Part shown: positions 3,946 to 32,700 of the stretch, one piece after another
How the letters are laid out: each line of letters starts with the position of its first letter
How positions within the stretch are numbered: position 1 is the first letter of the stretch
Origin: Caldisericota bacterium
GTDB lineage: Bacteria > CAIJMQ01 > JAADFP01
Length of the DNA: 33,611 bases
Reading direction: 5' to 3'
NCBI GenBank assembly: GCA_013152825.1
Contig: JAADFP010000045.1
Coordinates: 1-33,611, forward strand
Notes under the pieces: generated by a model
What the model was told of the DNA's origin: nothing
Seen by the model: the letters and a program-made list of their open reading frames with translations, nothing else
Database searches by the model: none
Made by a program: the position numbers and the translations under genes

Positions 3946-4307
3946 ATATACAGGAATTGGTAGAGAAAGAAAAAATGCGGGAAGATATCCCGGAATTTCA
4001 GGTAGGAGATACAGTCAAGGTATACACAAAAATCTTCGAAGGGGGAAAAGAAAGGGTGCAGGTTTTCGAGGGCATAGTAATTCGTAGACGCGGAGGAGGA
4101 TTGCGTGAAACCTTTACTGTGCGGCGCTCAAGTCATGGTGAAGGGGTAGAAAGAATATTTCCCCTGCATGCTCCTATAATAGAAAAGATTGAGGTAACCC
4201 GCAAAGGCAGAGTAAGACGCGCCAAACTTTACTACCTGAGAAAAGTAAGGGGTAAGAAATTAAAGGTAAAAGAAAGAACCCAGAGACGAGAAGTAAATAG
4301 TAAATAG
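3942..4307 (+). CDS. rplS: 50S ribosomal protein L19
   Basis: 121 aa; FQVGDTVKV...[12 protein letters not shown] core of bL19; the last 4 codons and the stop lie inside the heptad repeat. Confidence 0.95.
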
Positions 4308-4395
4308 TGAGTTGATTCCATAGTATCTTAGTTTCTGGGGTTTATCTTTTGGATTTATTTAGGATTTAGAGTTTTGTGTTTGGAGTTTTTAATAA
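4291..4395 (+). repeat. heptad-periodic modular intergenic element, locus A (NAGTAAA block followed by a T/G-rich xxxxTTT block)
   Basis: 15 in-phase 7-mers from 4291; no C in 4347-4404; the 17-mer at 4358-4374 is repeated exactly (inverted) at 27418-27434. Confidence 0.8.
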
Positions 4396-4983
4396 AGGTG
4401 GAATCTATACCCAGGAGGAATCTGGGAAAAAGGATACACCTTTATAGCCGGGATAGACGAGGTAGGAAGAGGACCGCTGGCCGGGCCAGTAGTTGCAGGT
4501 GCAGTAATTCTGAGACCTTTTACCTACATAGATAAACTCAAAGACTCAAAAAAACTTACTCCTGGAAAGAGGGAAGAATTTTTCGCTCTAATTGTAAATA
4601 ACTGCATAGACTGGGCAGTGGGTATAGTAGAAGCTCGGGAAATAGAAAGGATAAATATTCTCCAGGCTTCAAAATTAGCCATGCAGCAAGCCATAAAAAA
4701 CCTCAGACAGAAGCCGGATTTTCTCCTCATAGACGCAGTAAAACTTACTTCTGAAACACCTTCCAAATCAATAATAAGAGGCGATGAAATCTCAGCTTCC
4801 ATCGCCTGTGCCTCAATAATAGCCAAGGTAATGAGAGATAGATTAATGGATAACTTATCCCTTATCTTTCCCCAATACGGCTTCGAAAAGCATAAGGGAT
4901 ACCCTACAAAATTCCACCGGGAGAAAATCGCAGAGCATGGATTAACTCCCATACACCGGAAAACCTTCAAGTTTAAAAAGTAG
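4396..4983 (+). CDS. rnhB: ribonuclease HII; 5' end unresolved (no in-frame ATG/GTG/TTG before codon GTG 4618)
   Basis: The frame is open from 4396 and reads ..IWEKGYTFIAGIDEVGRGPLAGPVVAGAVIL..DSKKLT..ASIIAKV.RD..M..GFEKHKGY, spanning the full RNase HII core. The ORF track reports only the C-terminal 121 aa. Confidence 0.8.
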   Translation, partial: RWNLYPGGIWEKGYTFIAGIDEVGRGPLAGPVVAGAVILRPFTYIDKLKDSKKLTPGKREEFFALIVNNCIDWAVGIVEAREIERINILQASKLAMQQAIKNLRQKPDFLLIDAVKLTSETPSKSIIRGDEISASIACASIIAKVMRDRLMDNLSLIFPQYGFEKHKGYPTKFHREKIAEHGLTPIHRKTFKFKK

Positions 4984-5393: not shown

Positions 5394-5400
5394 CAGGGAA

Positions 5401-5630
5401 AGACTATACACTCAAGACTTTAGACTATAGACCGTAGACGGGAGGAATTAGTTAGTAGCGAGTAGATAGTAGTGGGTAGCGAGGAAAGGAGTGGTAAGCA
5501 GTGAACAGTGAATAGTAAGCAGTTATGAGAAAATCCCAAATCCCTCCTGATGAAACATCGGGATCGGGAGGCGGAATTGGCAACTAACAACACCTATCTG
5601 CATGCGGCTCGCCCACGCAGGATAACTTTA
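5401..5630 (+). repeat. heptad-periodic modular intergenic element, locus B
   Basis: 28 in-phase 7-mers across 5401-5596 followed by an imperfect hairpin at 5595-5624; shares 12-19-nt exact words with loci C and D. Confidence 0.85.
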
Positions 5631-26562: not shown

Positions 26563-26891
26563 ATGCTACCAAGAGAAAAATTTATTTCTGCTCTGGAGCG
26601 TAAACCAATAGAAGGAAGGGTCCCCCACTTTGAACTTGTCTTTTACCTCACCATGGAGGCATTTGGGAAAGTACATCCAAGGCATAGAAACTATGACCAG
26701 TGGGAACAGATGAGCCAGGAAGAAAAAAAAGCTGCACCGGGAAGACATAGCAGAAATCTTTTGCCCTTAAACACGGCATGCCCGGCTACGGTTATATATT
26801 TTCCACTTCCAATTGCGTTTTGCCCTTGAAAAGGTACGAGTTGATGTTAGAAGTCTGGAGGAAGGAGGGGAATTACACAACCGGAGAGTAA
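26563..26891 (+). pseudogene. remnant of a second URO-D/MtaA-like gene (N-terminal ~55 aa joined to the C-terminal ~45 aa, with a frameshift)
   Basis: Frame 1 reads MLPREKFISALERKPIEGRVPHFELVFYLTMEAFGKVHP...QEEKK. After an A8 run (26723-26730) the sense continues in another frame (LHREDIAEIF). Frame 3 (26751-26891) then gives ..GYGYIFSTSNCVLPLKRYELMLEVWRKEGNY, a typical URO-D-family C-terminus. Confidence 0.55.
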
Positions 26892-26892
26892 A

Positions 26893-27375
26893 ATGAAAAG
26901 GAAACGGGTCATTTCTCTTCTCATCTACGCCATAGCCATGGCTTACGTGGAAGCTCTGGTAGTAGTTTACCTAAGAAAGCTTGTACCCCTGGAAATATGG
27001 GAAAAAGCCACCAGTTACCAGGACATAACCCGGCTCATCCAAAGAGTGGGTATTATGTGGAGCGAACAAACCAGGGAGTTTGCCACCATAGTAATGCTTG
27101 GTACTGTAGCTTACTTATTTGGAAGAAGTAAAAAGGAAAAGTGGGCAGGATTCCTGATTTCCTTTGGTGTATGGGACATTTTTTACTACATATTTCTTTA
27201 TCTCTGGATACAATGGCCTTCCTCTCTGCTCACTCAGGATGTACTTTTCCTCATTCCCCTGCCCTGGGTAGCACCGGTAATCGTTCCCATTACTATCTCT
27301 GTAATACTGATACTCTGGGGTAGCCTGCTTCTTATACCAATTTCACCTTTATCACAACATAGATTAGGAAAGTGA
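26893..27375 (+). CDS. hypothetical polytopic membrane protein
   Basis: 160 aa with 4-5 hydrophobic helices; no family recognised. Confidence 0.5.
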   Translation: MKRKRVISLLIYAIAMAYVEALVVVYLRKLVPLEIWEKATSYQDITRLIQRVGIMWSEQTREFATIVMLGTVAYLFGRSKKEKWAGFLISFGVWDIFYYIFLYLWIQWPSSLLTQDVLFLIPLPWVAPVIVPITISVILILWGSLLLIPISPLSQHRLGK

Positions 27376-27436
27376 TGAGCTGCTACCCATACTTGTGTCC
27401 CGGGGTGAAATTAGGATAAACTCTAAATCCTAAACT

Positions 27437-27481
27437 TCCCGAAAGAATCCCGGACCCCGATATTATATCGGGGCTTCGGGA
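27437..27481. other. nested GC hairpin module
   Basis: Outer stem TCCCGAA (27437-43) pairs with TTCGGGA (27475-81). Inner stem CCCCGATA (27455-62) pairs with TATCGGGG (27466-73), loop TTA. Confidence 0.6.
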
Positions 27482-27567
27482 CCAAAACCTAAATAAATCT
27501 AAATGCTCAAGCCCAAAACTTCTCCCAGGAAACCAACTAACTGCTTATCCACCTACTCCCCGGTAAC

Positions 27568-27603
27568 ATCGGGACAGGCAGGAATGACAGGGGGAGCTGG
27601 TAT
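27568..27603 (-). repeat. 36-nt exact repeat, copy 1 (inverted partner at 31597-31632)
   Basis: ATCGGGACAGGCAGGAATGACAGGGGGAGCTGGTAT is the exact reverse complement of 31597-31632. Confidence 0.95.
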
Positions 27604-28026
27604 CCTGCATCTTGTATCTTACTCACTTCCTAACTTATTCACTTACTCACTTTTTACTATCCTGCATTCTTCTCACTACTCCTTCCCTCGCTACTAACTA
27701 ATTCCCCACTATAATGTCTAATGTCTATGGTCTACAGTCTAACTCGTTGGTCGGTTGAGGTTGCGTAGCTCGAATCGTATATCGTTATTCGTCCACCGTC
27801 TTCCCCCACCATAAAATAGGAAGAATATTCTCTCCTTGTTCCTCTCTTCCTCCTTTTTGCCCCTTCCTCTTTTCCTCTATTCAATCCTGTCTATTGACTC
27901 CTGATGAAATCTTTGGGATTACCTCAGTTTTATGGAAGAGAAAATCCCATAGTTGTGTTAAAATTTGGGGGAAAGCGGAAGTAAAAGTTTCTGGAGTTTC
28001 TTGTGTTTAAACAGAAAGAATAGATA

Positions 28027-29700
28027 ATGGTCTGGAAGATAAGAAAAAAAAACGACCCCTATGAAATAGAAAAACTGGTCCAGAGCTTAAGGATTTCTCC
28101 TCTGACAGCAGAAATGCTGCTTTACCGCGGAGTTACCACAGTAGAAGAGGCCAGGAAGTTTCTCTATCCCTCACTTGATGCTCTTCTCCCCCCCTCTGCA
28201 ATTCCCGATATAGAGAAAGCAAAGTATCGTATTGAAAAGGCAGTAGAAAACAGGGAAAAAATTCTTCTGTACGGAGATTACGATGCCGATGGAATCACCG
28301 GAACTGCGCTCCTTTACCACTTTTTTAAGAAGCAGGGCATTGTCCCCGAAGTCTATATCCCCCACCGGATAGAAGAGGGCTATGGATTTCATAGAGAGGC
28401 AGTGGAGAAACTTTCAGAGAAGGGATTCTCCCTCATCATTACTATTGACTGTGGAACAGAAGGAGAAGATGCAGCCTGCGAAGCAGCAGAGAAAGGAATT
28501 GATTTGGTTATTTGCGACCATCATATAAAAGAAGGGAACCTGCCTCCTGCTTATGCCCTGATAAACCCACATATTCATACACATTCACCAGGCAAGGAAC
28601 TCGCAGGATGCGGAATAGCTTTCAAACTACTTCAAAGCCTTGACGAAGAAGAAGCTTTCAAACATTTGGACCTGGTAACCGTAGGTACTGTAGCTGATAT
28701 TGTCCCGGTTATAGGGGATAATCGCATCCTGGTAAAGGAAGGCTTGTTAAAAATCGCAGAAACCTCAAAAAAAGGGCTCAGGAGCCTGCTTGAAATATGC
28801 GGCCTGAAAAAGAGAAAGATAACTGCCTGGGATATTTCCTTCCTATTAGCTCCTCGACTGAATGCCGGGGGAAGAATGACCCATGCGCTTAAGTCCCTGA
28901 GTCTTCTCCTGAGTAACGATGAAGAAGCCAGGGAAATAGCTCTCTCACTGGAACTGGATAACCGCAACAGGAAAAAAGTAGGTGACAATATACTCAAAGA
29001 AGCAGGAAAACTGATGAGAGAAAGAGAAGAGGAATCAGCCCTGGTACTGGCAGGTGAAGGATGGCATGCCGGAGTGCTGGGAATAATTGCTTCCCGCCTG
29101 GTAGATAAATACTCCCGGCCTGCTTTTGTAATAAGCCTTCCCCCCGATAAAAGCAAACCAGCAAAGGGTTCAGCCAGGAGTATCCCGGGCATAAACCTGT
29201 TTAATCTCCTAAAAGAATCGCATGACCTATTACTTACCTACGGTGGCCACGAAAAAGCAGGAGGGTTCGAGATACTTCCAGAGAAAATAAACGTCTTCCG
29301 TGAGAGAATTCTTAGCTTAATCAAGGATATCCCTGCTCCCGAGGAAAAGACCCTTTTGATAGACAAAGAAGTTTCACTTGACACCTTAACTTTTCAGCAG
29401 ATTAAGGAGTTATCCCTGCTCTCCCCCTTTGGAGAAGGGAACGAAGAACCACTGCTCCTCTCCCGTAAAGTGAAAATGGTAACTACTCCCCGTCCCCTGG
29501 GAAATGGTCATATAAAATTCTGGGTAAAAGGTGAGAAGTTACACCTGGAAGTTCTGGGATTTGGCTGGAAAGATAAGCTGGAAGATAACCTGAGCAAAGG
29601 TAGAGAAATTGACATAGTCTATACTCCTCGCACCAATAACTGGGAAGGGCGAAATAGTGTGGTTCTCATCCTTCAGAGCTTGAAAATATCTTCTAGGTGA
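28027..29700 (+). CDS. recJ: single-stranded-DNA-specific exonuclease RecJ
   Basis: 557 aa; DHH motifs (YGDYDADGITG, DCG, DHH) and a DHHA1 region (GGHEKAGG). Confidence 0.93.
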   Translation: MVWKIRKKNDPYEIEKLVQSLRISPLTAEMLLYRGVTTVEEARKFLYPSLDALLPPSAIPDIEKAKYRIEKAVENREKILLYGDYDADGITGTALLYHFFKKQGIVPEVYIPHRIEEGYGFHREAVEKLSEKGFSLIITIDCGTEGEDAACEAAEKGIDLVICDHHIKEGNLPPAYALINPHIHTHSPGKELAGCGIAFKLLQSLDEEEAFKHLDLVTVGTVADIVPVIGDNRILVKEGLLKIAETSKKGLRSLLEICGLKKRKITAWDISFLLAPRLNAGGRMTHALKSLSLLLSNDEEAREIALSLELDNRNRKKVGDNILKEAGKLMREREEESALVLAGEGWHAGVLGIIASRLVDKYSRPAFVISLPPDKSKPAKGSARSIPGINLFNLLKESHDLLLTYGGHEKAGGFEILPEKINVFRERILSLIKDIPAPEEKTLLIDKEVSLDTLTFQQIKELSLLSPFGEGNEEPLLLSRKVKMVTTPRPLGNGHIKFWVKGEKLHLEVLGFGWKDKLEDNLSKGREIDIVYTPRTNNWEGRNSVVLILQSLKISSR

Positions 29701-29707
29701 TTTAGCT

Positions 29708-30829
29708 ATGAAGAGAGAAAAAGATAAAAAATTTATGCAGGAAGTATTCTCCCTGGCAGAGAAAGGCAGGGGCACTACCTCACCCAATCCCATGGTAGGA
29801 GCAATAGTAGTCAAAGGCAACCGGATAGTAGGCAGAGGCTATCACAAAAAAGCAGGTTCTCCACATGCAGAAGTTATAGCTTTGAAAGAAGCAGGGCCAA
29901 AATCCCGGGGAGCAACCCTCTATATAAACCTTGAGCCCTGTGTTCACTACGGCAGAACTCCTCCCTGTGCCCCCCGTATAATAGAAAAAGGGATAAAAAG
30001 GGTTGTCATAGCCATGCTGGACCCAAATTCCAGGGTAAACGGCAAGGGCGTAACCATGCTCAAGAAAGCAGGGGTAGACGTAGAGGTAGGAATAGAGGAA
30101 GAAAAGGCACGGAAATTAAACGAGTTCTATATCAAACATATAACTACTAACCTACCCTTTGTAATACTCAAATGGGCAATGAGCCTGGATGGGAAAATAG
30201 CCACCTGTACAGGAGACTCTCGCTGGATTTCGGGAGAGGAATCCAGAGCTTTTGTGCATTCACTGAGGAACCAGGTAGATGGAATCCTGGTAGGCATAGG
30301 AACTGTCCTGCAGGATGATCCGCTTCTCACAGTAAGGAAAGTACCCGTCAAAAAACAGCCCCTTAGAATCATAATTGATCCTAACCTTTCTTTCCCTCTA
30401 ACGGCAAGAATGCTGCAGGAAGAAGGAGGAAACATACTAATCTTTACCGGTGAGGACATAGATAAAAACAAAAAAGAACAGCTACTTGCGAAGGATGTAG
30501 AGATAGTCCCCTGTGGAGAAAAAAGAATCCATATAGAAAATATGCTGAAAATCCTGGGGAAAAGGGAAATCACCTCTCTACTGGTGGAAGGCGGTAGTAA
30601 AGTGTTTACTGAATTCCTGGAAAAGAAGCTACCCGACAAAATATACACTGTTGTCTCACCTCTTCTTCTGGGAGGAGAAAAGGCACTTACTCCATTTGGT
30701 GGCAAGGGAGTGGAAAAAGTAAAAGCAGGCATACAATTCAAGGAAATACACTGGTTTTTCCGGGGTAAAGATGTGATAATGGAAGGATACCCGAAATACT
30801 CAACAGAGGATAAGCAGCTTTTATCCTAA
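29708..30829 (+). CDS. ribD: bifunctional riboflavin biosynthesis deaminase/reductase RibD
   Basis: HAEV...PCVHYGRTPPC CMP/dCMP deaminase zinc motif plus a C-terminal RibD reductase domain. Confidence 0.95.
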   Translation: MKREKDKKFMQEVFSLAEKGRGTTSPNPMVGAIVVKGNRIVGRGYHKKAGSPHAEVIALKEAGPKSRGATLYINLEPCVHYGRTPPCAPRIIEKGIKRVVIAMLDPNSRVNGKGVTMLKKAGVDVEVGIEEEKARKLNEFYIKHITTNLPFVILKWAMSLDGKIATCTGDSRWISGEESRAFVHSLRNQVDGILVGIGTVLQDDPLLTVRKVPVKKQPLRIIIDPNLSFPLTARMLQEEGGNILIFTGEDIDKNKKEQLLAKDVEIVPCGEKRIHIENMLKILGKREITSLLVEGGSKVFTEFLEKKLPDKIYTVVSPLLLGGEKALTPFGGKGVEKVKAGIQFKEIHWFFRGKDVIMEGYPKYSTEDKQLLS

Positions 30830-30879
30830 TCCCGGGGTATATTGGGTATCATATAACATAGGGTAAAAGGGGGTGAGTA

Positions 30880-31320
30880 ATGAACATACTGGTAATTCAT
30901 GGGCCTAATCTGGATTTACTGGGAAAAAGAGAACCAGAAATTTATGGAAAAGAAACCCTGGAAGATATAAACAATCTTTTGGAAAAGAAAGCAGAAGAAA
31001 AAAAAGTTTCCCTGAAAATAGTTCAAAGTAATTACGAAGGTAAAATTGTAGAAGTAATAGGTTCCTCGTTAGAATGGGCAGACGGGATAATAATTAATCC
31101 TGGTGCCTACACTCATACTTCCATAGCCATCAGAGATGCACTTGCTACATTCAACAAACCCTCAATAGAAGTCCATCTTTCTAATATCTACGCCAGGGAA
31201 AAATTTCGTCATCATTCCTACATCTCACCTGTATGCACGGGAAAAATTACTGGTCTGGGAAAATGGAGCTACTTATTAGCACTGGAAGCATTGGTGGCAA
31301 TAATGAAAAGCAGTAAATAG
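30880..31320 (+). CDS. aroQ: type II 3-dehydroquinate dehydratase
   Basis: ILVIHGPNLDLLGKREPEIYG..., INPGAYTHTSIAIRDA and EVHLSNI motifs; the last codons and the stop lie inside the heptad repeat. Confidence 0.95.
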   Translation: MNILVIHGPNLDLLGKREPEIYGKETLEDINNLLEKKAEEKKVSLKIVQSNYEGKIVEVIGSSLEWADGIIINPGAYTHTSIAIRDALATFNKPSIEVHLSNIYAREKFRHHSYISPVCTGKITGLGKWSYLLALEALVAIMKSSK

Positions 31321-31596
31321 TGAACAGTAAGGAGTAAATAGTAAGTAGGGGAGTAAGCGAGAAGAAGCATAACCCGCCTGCTCTCGACTAAGCCATGCCC
31401 GCTCCCGACCAACGCGGAAAGGCAGGCGGGGAGGGCGGACAGAGGCACAAAGGAGAGAAGAGAAGAAATGAGGAGAAGAAAGGCCGGGTATCCTGAGGAA
31501 TTTTATTCTAACTTCCATGTGGTTTAGGGTTTGAGTTTATTATTTTGGATTTTGGGTTTATTTAGAACTTTGGATTTGGTGTTTAGGGTTTATCCA

Positions 31597-31632
31597 ATAC
31601 CAGCTCCCCCTGTCATTCCTGCCTGTCCCGAT
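31597..31632 (+). repeat. 36-nt exact repeat, copy 2
   Basis: ATACCAGCTCCCCCTGTCATTCCTGCCTGTCCCGAT is the reverse complement of 27568-27603. Confidence 0.95.
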
Positions 31633-31656
31633 CTACATCGGGGCGAAAGCAGGAAT
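31615..31656. other. nested hairpin module
   Basis: ATTCCTGC (31615-22) pairs with GCAGGAAT (31649-56). This encloses CCCGAT (31627-32) paired with ATCGGG (31637-42), loop CTAC. Confidence 0.6.
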
Positions 31657-31827
31657 CCAGGATTTAGACTATAGACCTTAGACTGGCAGGAGTAATTAGT
31701 AGCTAGGGAAGAGTTGGTTATTAGTTTTGGAGATTGGTAGGGGTTGTTTGAGTTTTGTTATTTGTAATTTGTGGTTTATTTAAAACTTAGGGTTTATTCC
31801 CCCTCCCATCTTACCTCAGAGCAAATA

Positions 31828-32621: not shown

Positions 32622-32700
32622 ATCGACGGTAGTGAGGGAAGAATAGTAAACGGTAAATAGTAAGCAGTAAATAGTTTCGTCCCTTAGTATCCTGGCTGGA
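32616..32700 (+). repeat. heptad-periodic element, locus E (NAGTAAA block)
   Basis: 9 in-phase 7-mers across 32616-32678: AAGTAAA TCGACGG TAGTGAG GGAAGAA TAGTAAA CGGTAAA TAGTAAG CAGTAAA TAGTTTC; followed by GTATCCTG at 32687-94. Confidence 0.8.

What the first reader, a model, noticed from the sequence alone, without database searches (positions are those of the whole stretch)
27604..27904. 301 nt (43 units) in a single 7-nt register, the inverted mosaic copy of the locus B modules
Cutting from 27604 gives CCTGCAT CTTGTAT CTTACTC ACTTCCT AACTTAT TCACTTA CTCACTT TTTACTA TCCTGCA TTCTTCT CACTACT CCTTCCC TCGCTAC TAACTAA TTCCCCA CTATAAT GTCTAAT GTCTATG GTCTACA GTCTAAC TCGTTGG TCGGTTG AGGTTGC GTAGCTC GAATCGT ATATCGT TATTCGT CCACCGT CTTCCCC CACCATA AAATAGG AAGAATA TTCTCTC CTTGTTC CTCTCTT CCTCCTT TTTGCCC CTTCCTC TTTTCCT CTATTCA ATCCTGT CTATTGA CTCCTGA. 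Blocks (CTTnnnn/ACTnnnn, GTCTAnn x4, TCGnTnG, nnnTCGT x3-4, CTnnnnn pyrimidine tract) change identity without breaking phase. Read on the minus strand, the order AGAC block, AATTAGTTAGTAGCGAG, AGTrAG block, hairpin matches locus B. Positions 27618-27663 contain no G. The whole 650-bp gap between the membrane-protein gene and recJ is occupied by such modules. The only promoter-like sequence for recJ (TGTTAAAAT, 27956-27964) lies at the element's edge.
Basis: seen in the sequence. Interest (0 to 1): 0.75.

Follow-up and report, generated by a model that had tools for sequence, protein, structure and literature searches.

The report
Mosaic short-repeat filler upstream of recJ
The 301-base stretch is non-coding filler made of several short tandem-repeat blocks (7- and 8-base units) from a repeat family that litters the gaps between genes in this uncultured bacterial lineage; it is a new example of a known kind of sequence, not one 43-unit periodic element.

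Summary
The sequence is as transcribed and has a real 7-nt signal (lag-7 z = +5.6). That signal comes from three short blocks. There is therefore no single 43-unit register.

The "inverted copy of locus B" is real for 27540-27750. A TAGAC heptamer array, an exact 19-nt boundary module, AGT-type arrays and a hairpin lie in the same order as at 5397-5570. At least 20 copies of this core occur in related contigs.

Both flanks are window-specific:
- Relatives have rsmA directly upstream of recJ.
- The closest relative has a 6S RNA gene there.
- The upstream membrane-protein gene is followed by lacI in a relative.
- Homology stops at 27362 on the left and resumes at about 27931 on the right.

I found no gene remnant, Rfam match, RNA structure, consensus promoter or intrinsic terminator.

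Within a gap the modules share one polarity (121 of 125 markers). Gap polarity relative to genes is random (13:12).

Best reading: fast-evolving heptamer simple-sequence mosaics, like cyanobacterial STRRs, sitting at a rearrangement junction. This is a new member of a known kind, of modest interest.

The parts
27404..27440 (-). TTTAGG-type (G+T-rich) short-repeat module, read on the minus strand
   Evidence: 17-nt exact match of 27418-27434 to 4374-4358. The same module type occurs at 4347-4394, 31521-31596 and 31742-31789.
27441..27483 (.). Extended palindromic hairpin, core CCCCGATAT-T-ATATCGGGG. Member of the CCCGAY-N4/5-RTCGGG hairpin family.
   Evidence: Perfect 9-nt arms at 27455-27463 and 27465-27473. 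Fourteen family matches were listed in lineage loci, with the innermost pair T:A in the window and L001 and C:G in Ga0256830 contigs.
27484..27530 (-). Second TTTAGG-type module
   Evidence: 27484-27503 matches 4367-4348 at 90%. Inverted repeat I2.
27555..27603 (-). Truncated copy of the GTCAT-N-CCTGC...GCAGG-N'-AT hairpin module. It includes a 36-nt perfect inverted repeat of 31597-31632.
   Evidence: I1 (27568-27603 / 31597-31632, 100%). The hairpin family is characterised. The 3' arm GCAGGAAT is missing here (read directly).
27593..27620 (-). Three GTATCYT-type heptamers. TATCCTGCAT is a 10-nt direct repeat that brackets the octamer block (27601-27610 and 27658-27667).
   Evidence: Lag 7 at 14/21, p = 5e-4. 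D7.
27614..27659 (-). Octamer array, CTTACTCA on the plus strand and TGAGTAAG on the minus strand, about 4.4-5 units. Period 8, not 7.
   Evidence: Tandem Repeats Finder period 8, 4.4 copies. Lag 8 at 23/38 (p = 7e-5) against lag 7 at 11/39. CTT anchors fall every 8 nt (D1).
27681..27711 (-). Boundary module GGGGAATTAGTTAGTAGCGAGGGAAGGAG (TAG-anchored heptamers)
   Evidence: Exact 19-nt match to locus B 5444-5462. Family consensus ...AGTAGTTAGTAGCGAGGG... in Ga0256830 contigs.
27705..27747 (-). TAGACNN heptamer array, 4-5 units (GTCTANN on the plus strand)
   Evidence: Tandem Repeats Finder period 7, 4.4 copies. Lag 7 at 21/36, p = 3e-4. Matches of 80-90% to arrays in the window, L001, L005 and at least 12 metagenome contigs.
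27748..27767 (-). CAACNNN-like units (CAACCTC AACCGAC CAACGAG on the minus strand). Resembles the CAACTNA module of relatives but is statistically aperiodic.
   Evidence: Read. No significant lag (block E). A similar module lies at L001 8788-8830.
27768..27803 (-). Four NNNNACG heptamers on the minus strand (NNNTCGT on the plus strand)
   Evidence: Lag 7 at 15/29, p = 0.01. TCGT in phase at 27775, 27782 and 27789. No family match.
27810..27838 (.). Aperiodic segment with the imperfect palindrome AGGAAGAATATTCTCTCCT
   Evidence: No periodicity (block G). Palindrome read directly.
27832..27882 (-). Polypurine tract on the minus strand (polypyrimidine on the plus strand). Low-complexity, with a weak period of about 8.
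   Evidence: Tandem Repeats Finder period 8 with 62% matches. Lag 8 at 25/43 against lag 7 at 21/44. Analogous polypurine modules lie at 31440-31480 and L001 8445-8475.
27873..27904 (.). 14-nt unit repeated twice (TCTATTCAATCCTG / TCTATTGACTCCTG)
   Evidence: Tandem Repeats Finder period 14, 2.0 copies, 85%. Lag 14 at 12/18.
27931..28026 (+). recJ promoter and leader. Not part of the mosaic. Contains TGTGTTAAAAT (extended -10-like, 27954-27964).
   Evidence: This is the only part of the gap alignable with L001. blastn identity of 86% runs from 27954 to 31308.
5397..5570 (+). Locus B: the plus-strand copy of the same composite (TAGAC array, AATTAGTTAGTAGCGAG, AGT arrays, CCTGAT...ATCGGG hairpin)

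Best explanation
27604-27904 is not one periodic element. It is a non-coding patchwork of about nine short, degenerate tandem-repeat blocks (units of 7 nt, in two places 8 nt, once 14 nt) plus aperiodic spacers.

Its core, 27644-27750, together with the flanking hairpin at 27555-27603, is a minus-strand copy of a polar composite: a GNRA-loop hairpin, then a TAGAC heptamer array, then TAGTTAG/TAGCGAG heptamers, then AGTAAAC-type arrays. This composite is scattered through the intergenic gaps of this uncultured lineage.

Mechanism, inferred from what is established for heptanucleotide simple-sequence repeats:
- The blocks arise and change by replication slippage on short units.
- Modules are copied between loci by recombination or gene conversion. 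That would explain the 36-nt and 19-nt perfect identities embedded in otherwise diverged mosaics.
- The dispersed copies serve as substrates for rearrangement.

Shown: the gap 27376-27930 has no orthologue on either side in relatives. It therefore marks a recent rearrangement junction that brought recJ-ribD-aroQ next to the membrane-protein gene.

The stretch most likely has no sequence-specific function. Its likeliest incidental effect is that, read from the upstream gene, it gives a C-rich, G-poor, unstructured RNA that could load Rho and insulate recJ. recJ keeps its own conserved extended -10 promoter just downstream.
For: Periodicity is block-wise with mixed periods.

Family membership:
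- Module matches occur within the window and in L001.
- At least 20 copies of the 27644-27750 core occur at 70-87% identity in L001, L005 and Ga0256830 contigs.
- All lag-7 arrays found in 123 kb of lineage DNA are intergenic, except one that overlaps the 3' end of a gene.
- 121 of 125 polarity markers agree within their gap. Gap polarity relative to genes is 13 sense to 12 antisense.

No orthologue at this site:
- recJ-ribD-aroQ is 86% identical to L001 only from 27954 to 31308. The mosaics on both sides are unalignable.
- Relatives with 77, 68 and 54% RecJ identity have rsmA 3 nt upstream, 62 nt upstream or overlapping recJ.
- L001 has rsmA inverted plus a 6S RNA gene there.
- L084 is colinear with the window at 83% identity up to 27362. 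It then has an array-free 309-nt gap and lacI.

No other feature found:
- No coding or RNA gene: no Pfam hit for either ORF in the gap. tblastn with rsmA gave no hit, and lacI gave only chance-level hits elsewhere in the window (E 3.9 and 7.1). Rfam found nothing.
- Folding z-scores are +0.26 and +1.06.
- No consensus promoter or terminator.
- C-G on the plus strand is 0.34 for 27616-27695, the 99.9th percentile of the window.

Literature: heptanucleotide repeats are the commonest long simple-sequence repeats in many bacteria and are attributed to polymerase slippage. Mixed heptamer arrays in intergenic regions have been linked to gene rearrangement (PMC4679880, PMC4692102).
Against: - Slippage itself was not observed. 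Three assemblies of one related locus show no indels, and no population data exist for this window.
- The hairpin modules show a strand-specific GNRA loop and compensatory variation at one pair (GC 7, AU 3, UA 3, GU 1, none unpaired). This hints at selection on at least that module.
- Uniform polarity within gaps is not predicted by purely random slippage.
- The junction rests on one metagenomic contig. No other assembly carries these exact proteins, so a chimeric join at a repeat cannot be excluded.
- The related loci were partly retrieved with a pattern taken from the element, which biases copy density upward.
Confidence: 0.72

Rival explanations
1. Functional insulator: the inverted mosaic is kept because, as plus-strand RNA read from the upstream gene, it is a Rho-utilisation site. 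It would end read-through before the recJ promoter.
For: The plus strand is 31% C and 11% G. C-G is 0.34 over 27616-27695 and 0.24-0.25 over 27776-27895, the 97th to 99.9th percentile of the window. The RNA is unstructured, z = +0.26. No intrinsic terminator lies in the gap. recJ has its own conserved extended -10.
Against: The composition follows simply from the orientation of a purine-rich family. Half of the family copies lie the other way round. This copy has no positional conservation. Whether the organism has Rho is unknown.
Confidence: 0.12
2. The composite is a transcribed RNA element, for example a small RNA or a 3'-UTR platform that binds a protein through repeated heptads and is capped by a GNRA hairpin. 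This copy would be expressed from the minus strand.
For: The hairpin loops read GNRA (one AAAA) in all 16 copies, always in the same orientation relative to GTCAT. One stem pair covaries through three Watson-Crick types. The composite has a fixed polarity.
Against: In this copy the hairpin is truncated because the 3' arm is missing. The 301 nt have no structure. No promoter-like site lies on either strand. Arrays turn over completely between genomes that are 86% identical. No Rfam family matches.
Confidence: 0.1
3. A non-autonomous mobile element (MITE- or REPIN-like) that inserted upstream of recJ.
For: The family is high-copy and dispersed, occurs in either orientation and has palindromic modules. 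A CCCGAT hairpin is nested in the loop of another hairpin at 31611-31660, and a 26-nt extra segment with the same hairpin type lies in the apical loop of the L001 6S RNA.
Against: There are no terminal inverted repeats or target-site duplication around the composite. Copies differ in module number and order rather than sharing defined ends. No transposase or REP-associated tyrosine transposase (RAYT) gene was found among the window's Pfam-scanned genes.
Confidence: 0.08
4. Remnant of a decayed gene (rsmA, lacI, or the 6S RNA that occupies this position in the closest relative).
For: Relatives have rsmA or 6S RNA upstream of recJ, and lacI downstream of the membrane-protein gene. The 19-nt hairpin at 27455-27473 resembles the apical hairpin of the L001 6S RNA.
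Against: tblastn with four rsmA proteins found nothing in the window, and lacI gave only chance-level hits outside the gap (E 3.9 and 7.1). cmscan at E <= 10 gives no 6S match. The shared hairpin belongs to a dispersed family. The stretch is fully accounted for by repeat modules.
Confidence: 0.03

Closest known systems
STRR (short tandemly repeated repetitive) heptanucleotide sequences of heterocystous cyanobacteria (Calothrix/Anabaena; Mazel et al. 1990, cited from my own knowledge; the Calothrix heptanucleotides are mentioned in PMC4692102)
   Same: Degenerate tandem heptamers lie in intergenic regions. Several unit types are mixed in one gap. There are many dispersed copies, and the sequences are lineage-specific.
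   Different: The unit sequences differ (TAGACNN, TAGCGAG, AGTAAAC and TTTAGGG-like, not CCCCAGT, TTGGTCA or CAACAGT). The host is a non-cyanobacterial uncultured lineage whose nearest named homologues are Omnitrophota. Here the arrays are joined to a GNRA-loop hairpin in a fixed order.
Long simple-sequence repeats with 7-nt units (Mrazek, Guo & Shah 2007, as summarised in PMC4679880 and PMC4692102)
   Same: A 7-nt unit is preferred, the arrays are intergenic, and the presumed origin is polymerase slippage.
   Different: The arrays here are short (3-6 units) and highly degenerate, and one block has an 8-nt unit. Length polymorphism was not observed.
TAACTGA and mixed heptamer repeats of Beggiatoaceae, Microcystis and Bacteroidetes (MacGregor 2015, PMC4679880); GGGAATC repeats of Xanthomonas (Rehm 2015, PMC4692102)
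   Same: Intergenic gaps are filled with several heptamer types. Orientation relative to genes is variable in some species. Close relatives have shorter, repeat-free gaps. A link to gene rearrangement has been suggested.
   Different: There is no preference for a position just upstream of start codons, no G-quadruplex potential, and the units are different.
REP / BIME of enterobacteria and REPINs of Pseudomonas (PMC3116915)
   Same: Mosaic combinations of short palindromic units with other motifs, confined to intergenic space, in high copy, with roles in rearrangement.
   Different: The 301 nt themselves contain no REP-like palindrome. No REPIN doublets and no RAYT gene were seen. Tandem heptamers are not part of BIMEs.
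Small dispersed repeats (SDR) of Nostoc (Elhai et al. 2008, cited from my own knowledge; cited in PMC4390886)
   Same: Very small repeat modules nested within one another and among tandem heptamers. Compare the CCCGAT hairpin inside another hairpin's loop at 31611-31660.
   Different: Precise insertion and excision were not demonstrated here, and there is no sequence relation.

Membership tests
Heptanucleotide simple-sequence / STRR-type intergenic repeats | Head-to-tail units of 7 nt | tested here: met
   Met for blocks 27593-27620, 27705-27747 and 27768-27803. Not met for 27614-27659 (period 8) or for two aperiodic stretches.
Heptanucleotide simple-sequence / STRR-type intergenic repeats | Intergenic location and many dispersed arrays in the same genome or lineage | tested here: met
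   All but one of the lag-7 arrays in 123 kb of lineage DNA are intergenic; the exception overlaps the 3' end of a gene. There are five mosaic gaps in the window.
Heptanucleotide simple-sequence / STRR-type intergenic repeats | Unit-number variation in steps of the unit length between strains (slippage) | tested here: inconclusive
   Three assemblies of one related locus differ only by substitutions. No second copy of this window is available.
STRR sensu stricto (cyanobacterial STRR1-3) | Consensus units CCCCAGT / TTGGTCA / CAACAGT in heterocystous cyanobacteria | tested here: not met
   The units here are TAGACNN, TAGCGAG, AGTAAAC and TTTAGGG-like. Nearest named protein homologues are Omnitrophota, Planctomycetota and Bacillota at 40-59%. 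The STRR consensus sequences are from my own knowledge.
REP / BIME / REPIN | Imperfect palindromic unit of 20-40 nt, repeated genome-wide | tested here: inconclusive
   Two hairpin families exist next to the arrays. None lies within 27604-27904, and the adjacent copy at 27555-27603 is truncated.
REP / BIME / REPIN | Associated RAYT (IS200/IS605-type) transposase | tested here: inconclusive
   None was found among the window's Pfam-scanned genes. The rest of the genome is not available.
MITE | Terminal inverted repeats and target-site duplication bounding a unit of fixed length | tested here: not met
   No such repeats surround the composite. Copies vary in module content.
Rho-dependent terminator (rut site) | At least 70-80 nt of C-rich, G-poor, unstructured RNA on the transcribed strand | tested here: met
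   C 0.36 and G 0.03 over 27616-27695. Folding z = +0.26.
Rho-dependent terminator (rut site) | Rho-dependent 3' ends in vivo | not testable with these tools
   No transcript data are available, and whether rho is present in this genome is unknown.
6S RNA (RF00013) | Match to the covariance model | tested here: not met
   L001 scores 75.4 bits at the equivalent position. The window gap gives no match even at E <= 10.
CRISPR array | Direct repeats of 23-50 nt separated by unique spacers of similar length | tested here: not met
   Units are 7-14 nt and contiguous.

The most novel reading that the evidence does not exclude
The mosaics may be copies of one polar composite element, defined as a GTCAT-CCTGC-GNRA-GCAGG hairpin followed by arrays of heptads that each carry a stop-like T-purine-purine triplet. 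Such an element would be propagated as a unit through an uncultured, Omnitrophota-related lineage. It could act either as a very small non-autonomous mobile element whose hairpins insert into the loops of other hairpins (possibly including 6S RNA), or as a multicopy RNA or protein-binding platform. In either case it would actively drive gene-order change, such as the relocation of recJ-ribD-aroQ between two inverted mosaics that share a perfect 36-mer. TAGAC-type heptad arrays in many phage and bacterial contigs would then be part of a wider, undescribed class.
Probability: 0.17. Interest if true: 0.55.

Novelty: new member of a known kind. Interest (0 to 1): 0.3.

Why it matters
For genome annotation, gaps of this type in the lineage should be labelled as repeat mosaics. 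They should not be mined for hidden genes or single long periodic signals.

For genome evolution, the window gives a clean small example of three things:
- Complete turnover of intergenic mosaics between genomes that are 86% identical in the adjoining genes.
- Synteny breaks that coincide with the mosaics.
- Strict polarity within each mosaic, with no orientation preference relative to genes.

If the polar composite proved to be mobile or to bind a factor, it would extend the STRR/REP type of element to a poorly known phylum-level lineage. For recJ itself the practical message is that expression probably depends on its own conserved extended -10 promoter.

Tried and rejected
- **All-frame stop trailers.** I considered that the arrays are placed after genes because their heptads carry TAG, TAA or TGA. 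In the window 4 of 5 gaps are co-oriented with the upstream gene. Over 27 gaps the orientation is 13 sense, 12 antisense and 2 convergent, so I rejected this.
- **Replication origin.** There is a cumulative-skew minimum near 27.5 kb and one near-consensus DnaA box at 27545. DnaA boxes do not cluster: 13 matches against 8.2 expected, spread over the window. The skew follows gene orientation.
- **Decayed rsmA, lacI or 6S RNA.** No significant similarity.
- **Small ORFs 27503-27697 (+) and 27732-27884 (-).** No Pfam match. Both lie in low-complexity repeats.
- **Known RNA families.** None at gathering scores in the window. Only noise at E <= 10 in the gap.
- **Intrinsic terminator or sigma-70 promoter in the gap.** None found.
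- **MITE ends.** None found.
- **Colinear alignment of the gap with L001's recJ-upstream gap.** Only the promoter aligns.
- **Metagenome scan with the 36-mer core TGTCATTCCTGCCTGTCCCGAT.** 0 hits.
- **Exact-protein look-ups to find this contig or its junction in other assemblies.** Nothing on record.
- **Source or taxonomy of the related MAGs.** No paper found.
- **Elhai 2008.** Not held in the library, so cited from memory only.

Full report
**Setting**

The finding lies in the 651-nt gap between a 160-aa ORF (26893-27375, +) and recJ (28027-29700, +). The ORF has no Pfam match, but many homologues exist. recJ matches DHH, DHHA1 and RecJ_OB. It is followed by ribD, aroQ and a HEPN/nucleotidyltransferase pair. 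The window is an ordinary chromosomal segment with eno, ffh, trmD, rplS, polyamine genes, mla genes, pheT and fab genes. It comes from a poorly sampled lineage. RecJ relatives are found at 93% (L001, a MAG labelled only "bacterium"), 77%, 68% and 54% identity, then at 45% or less. The nearest named homologues of the membrane protein are Omnitrophota at 58-59%.

**The observation**

The heptamer cuts are transcribed correctly, and the region has a genuine excess of identity at lag 7: 0.439 against 0.294, z = +5.6. The shuffles' 95th percentile for the best lag is z = 2.97. The signal is local.

- Tandem Repeats Finder reports period 8 for 27618-27652, period 7 for 27712-27742, period 8 for 27839-27882 and period 14 for 27876-27903.
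- In block tests, 27614-27659 gives lag 8 at 23/38 (p = 7e-5) and lag 7 at chance (11/39).
- 27748-27774 and 27801-27838 show no periodicity.
- Clear 7-nt periodicity is limited to 27593-27620, 27705-27747 and 27768-27803.
This is the drift expected of an octamer cut into sevens.

"Phase kept across blocks of different motif" cannot be defined from one copy. Tested across 17 family copies, the offset between the TAGAC block and the next TAG block is 0, 1, 2, 3 or 6 mod 7. The 49-nt G-free run is real but not exceptional in this genome.

**What it is**

Read on the minus strand, 27540-27750 is colinear with locus B (5397-5570). Both have a TAGAC heptamer array, the boundary module GGAATTAGTTAGTAGCGAG (19 nt exact), AGT-type arrays and a CCYGAT...ATCGGG hairpin. 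The same modules occur at 4290-4394, 31305-31800 and 32640-32677 in the window, and in L001 and L005.

A metagenome scan with a composite pattern returned 25 loci. Twelve of them come from one metagenome (Ga0256830) and show the same architecture: the hairpin CCTGTCAT-N-CCTGC-GNRA-GCAGG-N'-ATCCAGG, then a TAGAC array, then TGGGAG...AGTAGCGAG TAGTTAG TAGTGAGGG, then an AGTAAAC array.

blastn of 27376-27930 against these loci gives at least 20 matches at 70-87% identity, but only for 27644-27750. The right-hand 150 nt of the finding consists of NNNTCGT units, a palindrome, a pyrimidine tract and a 14-mer repeated twice. These resemble family module types only loosely.

Over 27 mosaic gaps, 121 of 125 polarity markers agree within their gap. 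Gap polarity relative to transcription is 13 sense, 12 antisense and 2 convergent. The "inverted" orientation of this copy is therefore not special.

**Comparative evidence**

The recJ-ribD-aroQ block is 86% identical to L001 from 27954 to 31308. Homology stops on both sides exactly where the mosaics begin.

- Upstream of recJ, relatives at 77, 68 and 54% RecJ identity have rsmA 3 nt away, 62 nt away or overlapping.
- L001 has rsmA inverted and a bona fide 6S RNA gene in the gap (RF00013, 75.4 bits).
- The window has no rsmA and no 6S RNA.
- On the left, L084 (Ga0256830_1000698) is colinear with the window at 83% identity up to 27362. It then has an array-free AT-rich 309-nt gap and a convergent lacI.

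So 27376-27930 is specific to this contig on both sides. It is a filled site at a rearrangement junction, with no gene remnant. A perfect 36-nt inverted repeat (27568-27603 / 31597-31632) lies in the two oppositely oriented mosaics that flank the conserved block.

**What it is not**

- No Pfam match for the two small ORFs.
- No Rfam family.
- No RNA structure beyond shuffles (z = +0.26 and +1.06).
- No consensus sigma-70 promoter or intrinsic terminator.
- No MITE-like ends.
- No DnaA-box cluster.

**How it most likely works**

Heptanucleotide repeats are the commonest long simple-sequence repeats in many bacteria and are attributed to polymerase slippage. Mixed heptamer arrays fill intergenic gaps in Microcystis and some Bacteroidetes, where relatives have shorter repeat-free gaps and a link with rearrangement has been proposed (PMC4679880, PMC4692102).

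I infer the same here. Blocks are generated and remodelled by slippage. Modules are homogenised between loci by recombination or gene conversion, which would give the 19-nt and 36-nt perfect tracts. Ectopic recombination among copies reshuffles gene order. Complete turnover between genomes that are 86% identical argues against sequence-specific function at this locus.

One incidental effect is plausible. On the plus strand the stretch is C-rich, G-poor (C-G up to 0.34, the 99.9th percentile) and unstructured. This is the composition of a Rho loading site, so it might insulate recJ, which has its own conserved TGTGTTAAAAT element.

Points that argue for some selection concern the hairpin modules rather than the 301 nt. 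Loops read GNRA (one AAAA) in all 16 copies in one orientation. One stem pair varies as GC 7, AU 3, UA 3 and GU 1 with none unpaired. A second hairpin family switches T:A to C:G between lineages.

**Caveats**

- The junction rests on one metagenomic contig that could not be found elsewhere.
- Related loci were partly selected with a pattern from the element.
- Gene calls for the orientation count are ORF-based approximations.
- Slippage polymorphism was not observed.

**Verdict**

The single-register claim is rejected and the mosaic-copy claim is upheld. The stretch is a new member of a known kind (STRR/heptamer simple-sequence mosaics with REP-like hairpins) and is of modest interest.

Noticed in passing
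L001 4655-4860 (minus strand): The closest relative has a 6S RNA gene (RF00013, 75.4 bits against a gathering score of 46.4) between an inverted rsmA and recJ. Its apical loop holds 26 extra nt that include a CCCCGATGTAATATCAGGG hairpin of the dispersed CCCGAY...RTCGGG family. The window has no 6S RNA anywhere.
   Followed up: partly
window 27568-27603 and 31597-31632: A perfect 36-nt inverted repeat lies in the two oppositely oriented mosaics that flank the conserved 3.35-kb recJ-ribD-aroQ block. It is a possible substrate or footprint of an inversion or translocation.
   Followed up: partly
window 31611-31660: Nested hairpins: TGTCATTCCTGC[CTGTCCCGATCTACATCGGGGC]GAAAGCAGGAAT. A CCCGAT hairpin sits exactly in front of the GAAA loop of the GTCAT-type hairpin, as if it had been inserted there.
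   Followed up: no
window 26563-26888: The URO-D (uroporphyrinogen decarboxylase family) gene present in L084 (321 aa) is reduced here to its first 56 and last 47 codons in different frames. This is a 627-nt internal deletion, so it is a likely pseudogene or an assembly error.
   Followed up: partly
window 4396-4983: The RNase HII reading frame (IAGIDEVGRGPLAGPVVAG...) is open from 4396 but has no ATG, GTG or TTG before 4618, which is inside the conserved domain. Either the start codon is non-canonical or the adjacent repeat mosaic (4308-4395) displaced the original start.
   Followed up: no
L007-L057 (viral contigs) and L068, L071-L076 (metagenome contigs): Arrays of four or more TAGACNN heptamers occur in 51 viral contigs with GC content from 24 to 66%. 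Some lie between a stop codon and the next ribosome-binding site, and some are paired with an inverted array to form a long hairpin. High-GC contigs also join TAGACGG arrays to AGTAGCGAG. TAG-anchored heptad arrays therefore seem widespread beyond this lineage.
   Followed up: partly
L086 5596-5645 and 5904-5953: A more distant relative (75% identity in the membrane protein) carries a different heptamer, (AATTACG)n, as an inverted pair about 260 nt apart in the intergenic gap upstream of pgk. Heptamer arrays with lineage-specific units appear to be a trait of the wider clade.
   Followed up: no
window 27601-27610 and 27658-27667: An exact 10-nt direct repeat, TATCCTGCAT, brackets the octamer block. 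This suggests that the block arose as part of a 57-nt duplication.
   Followed up: no
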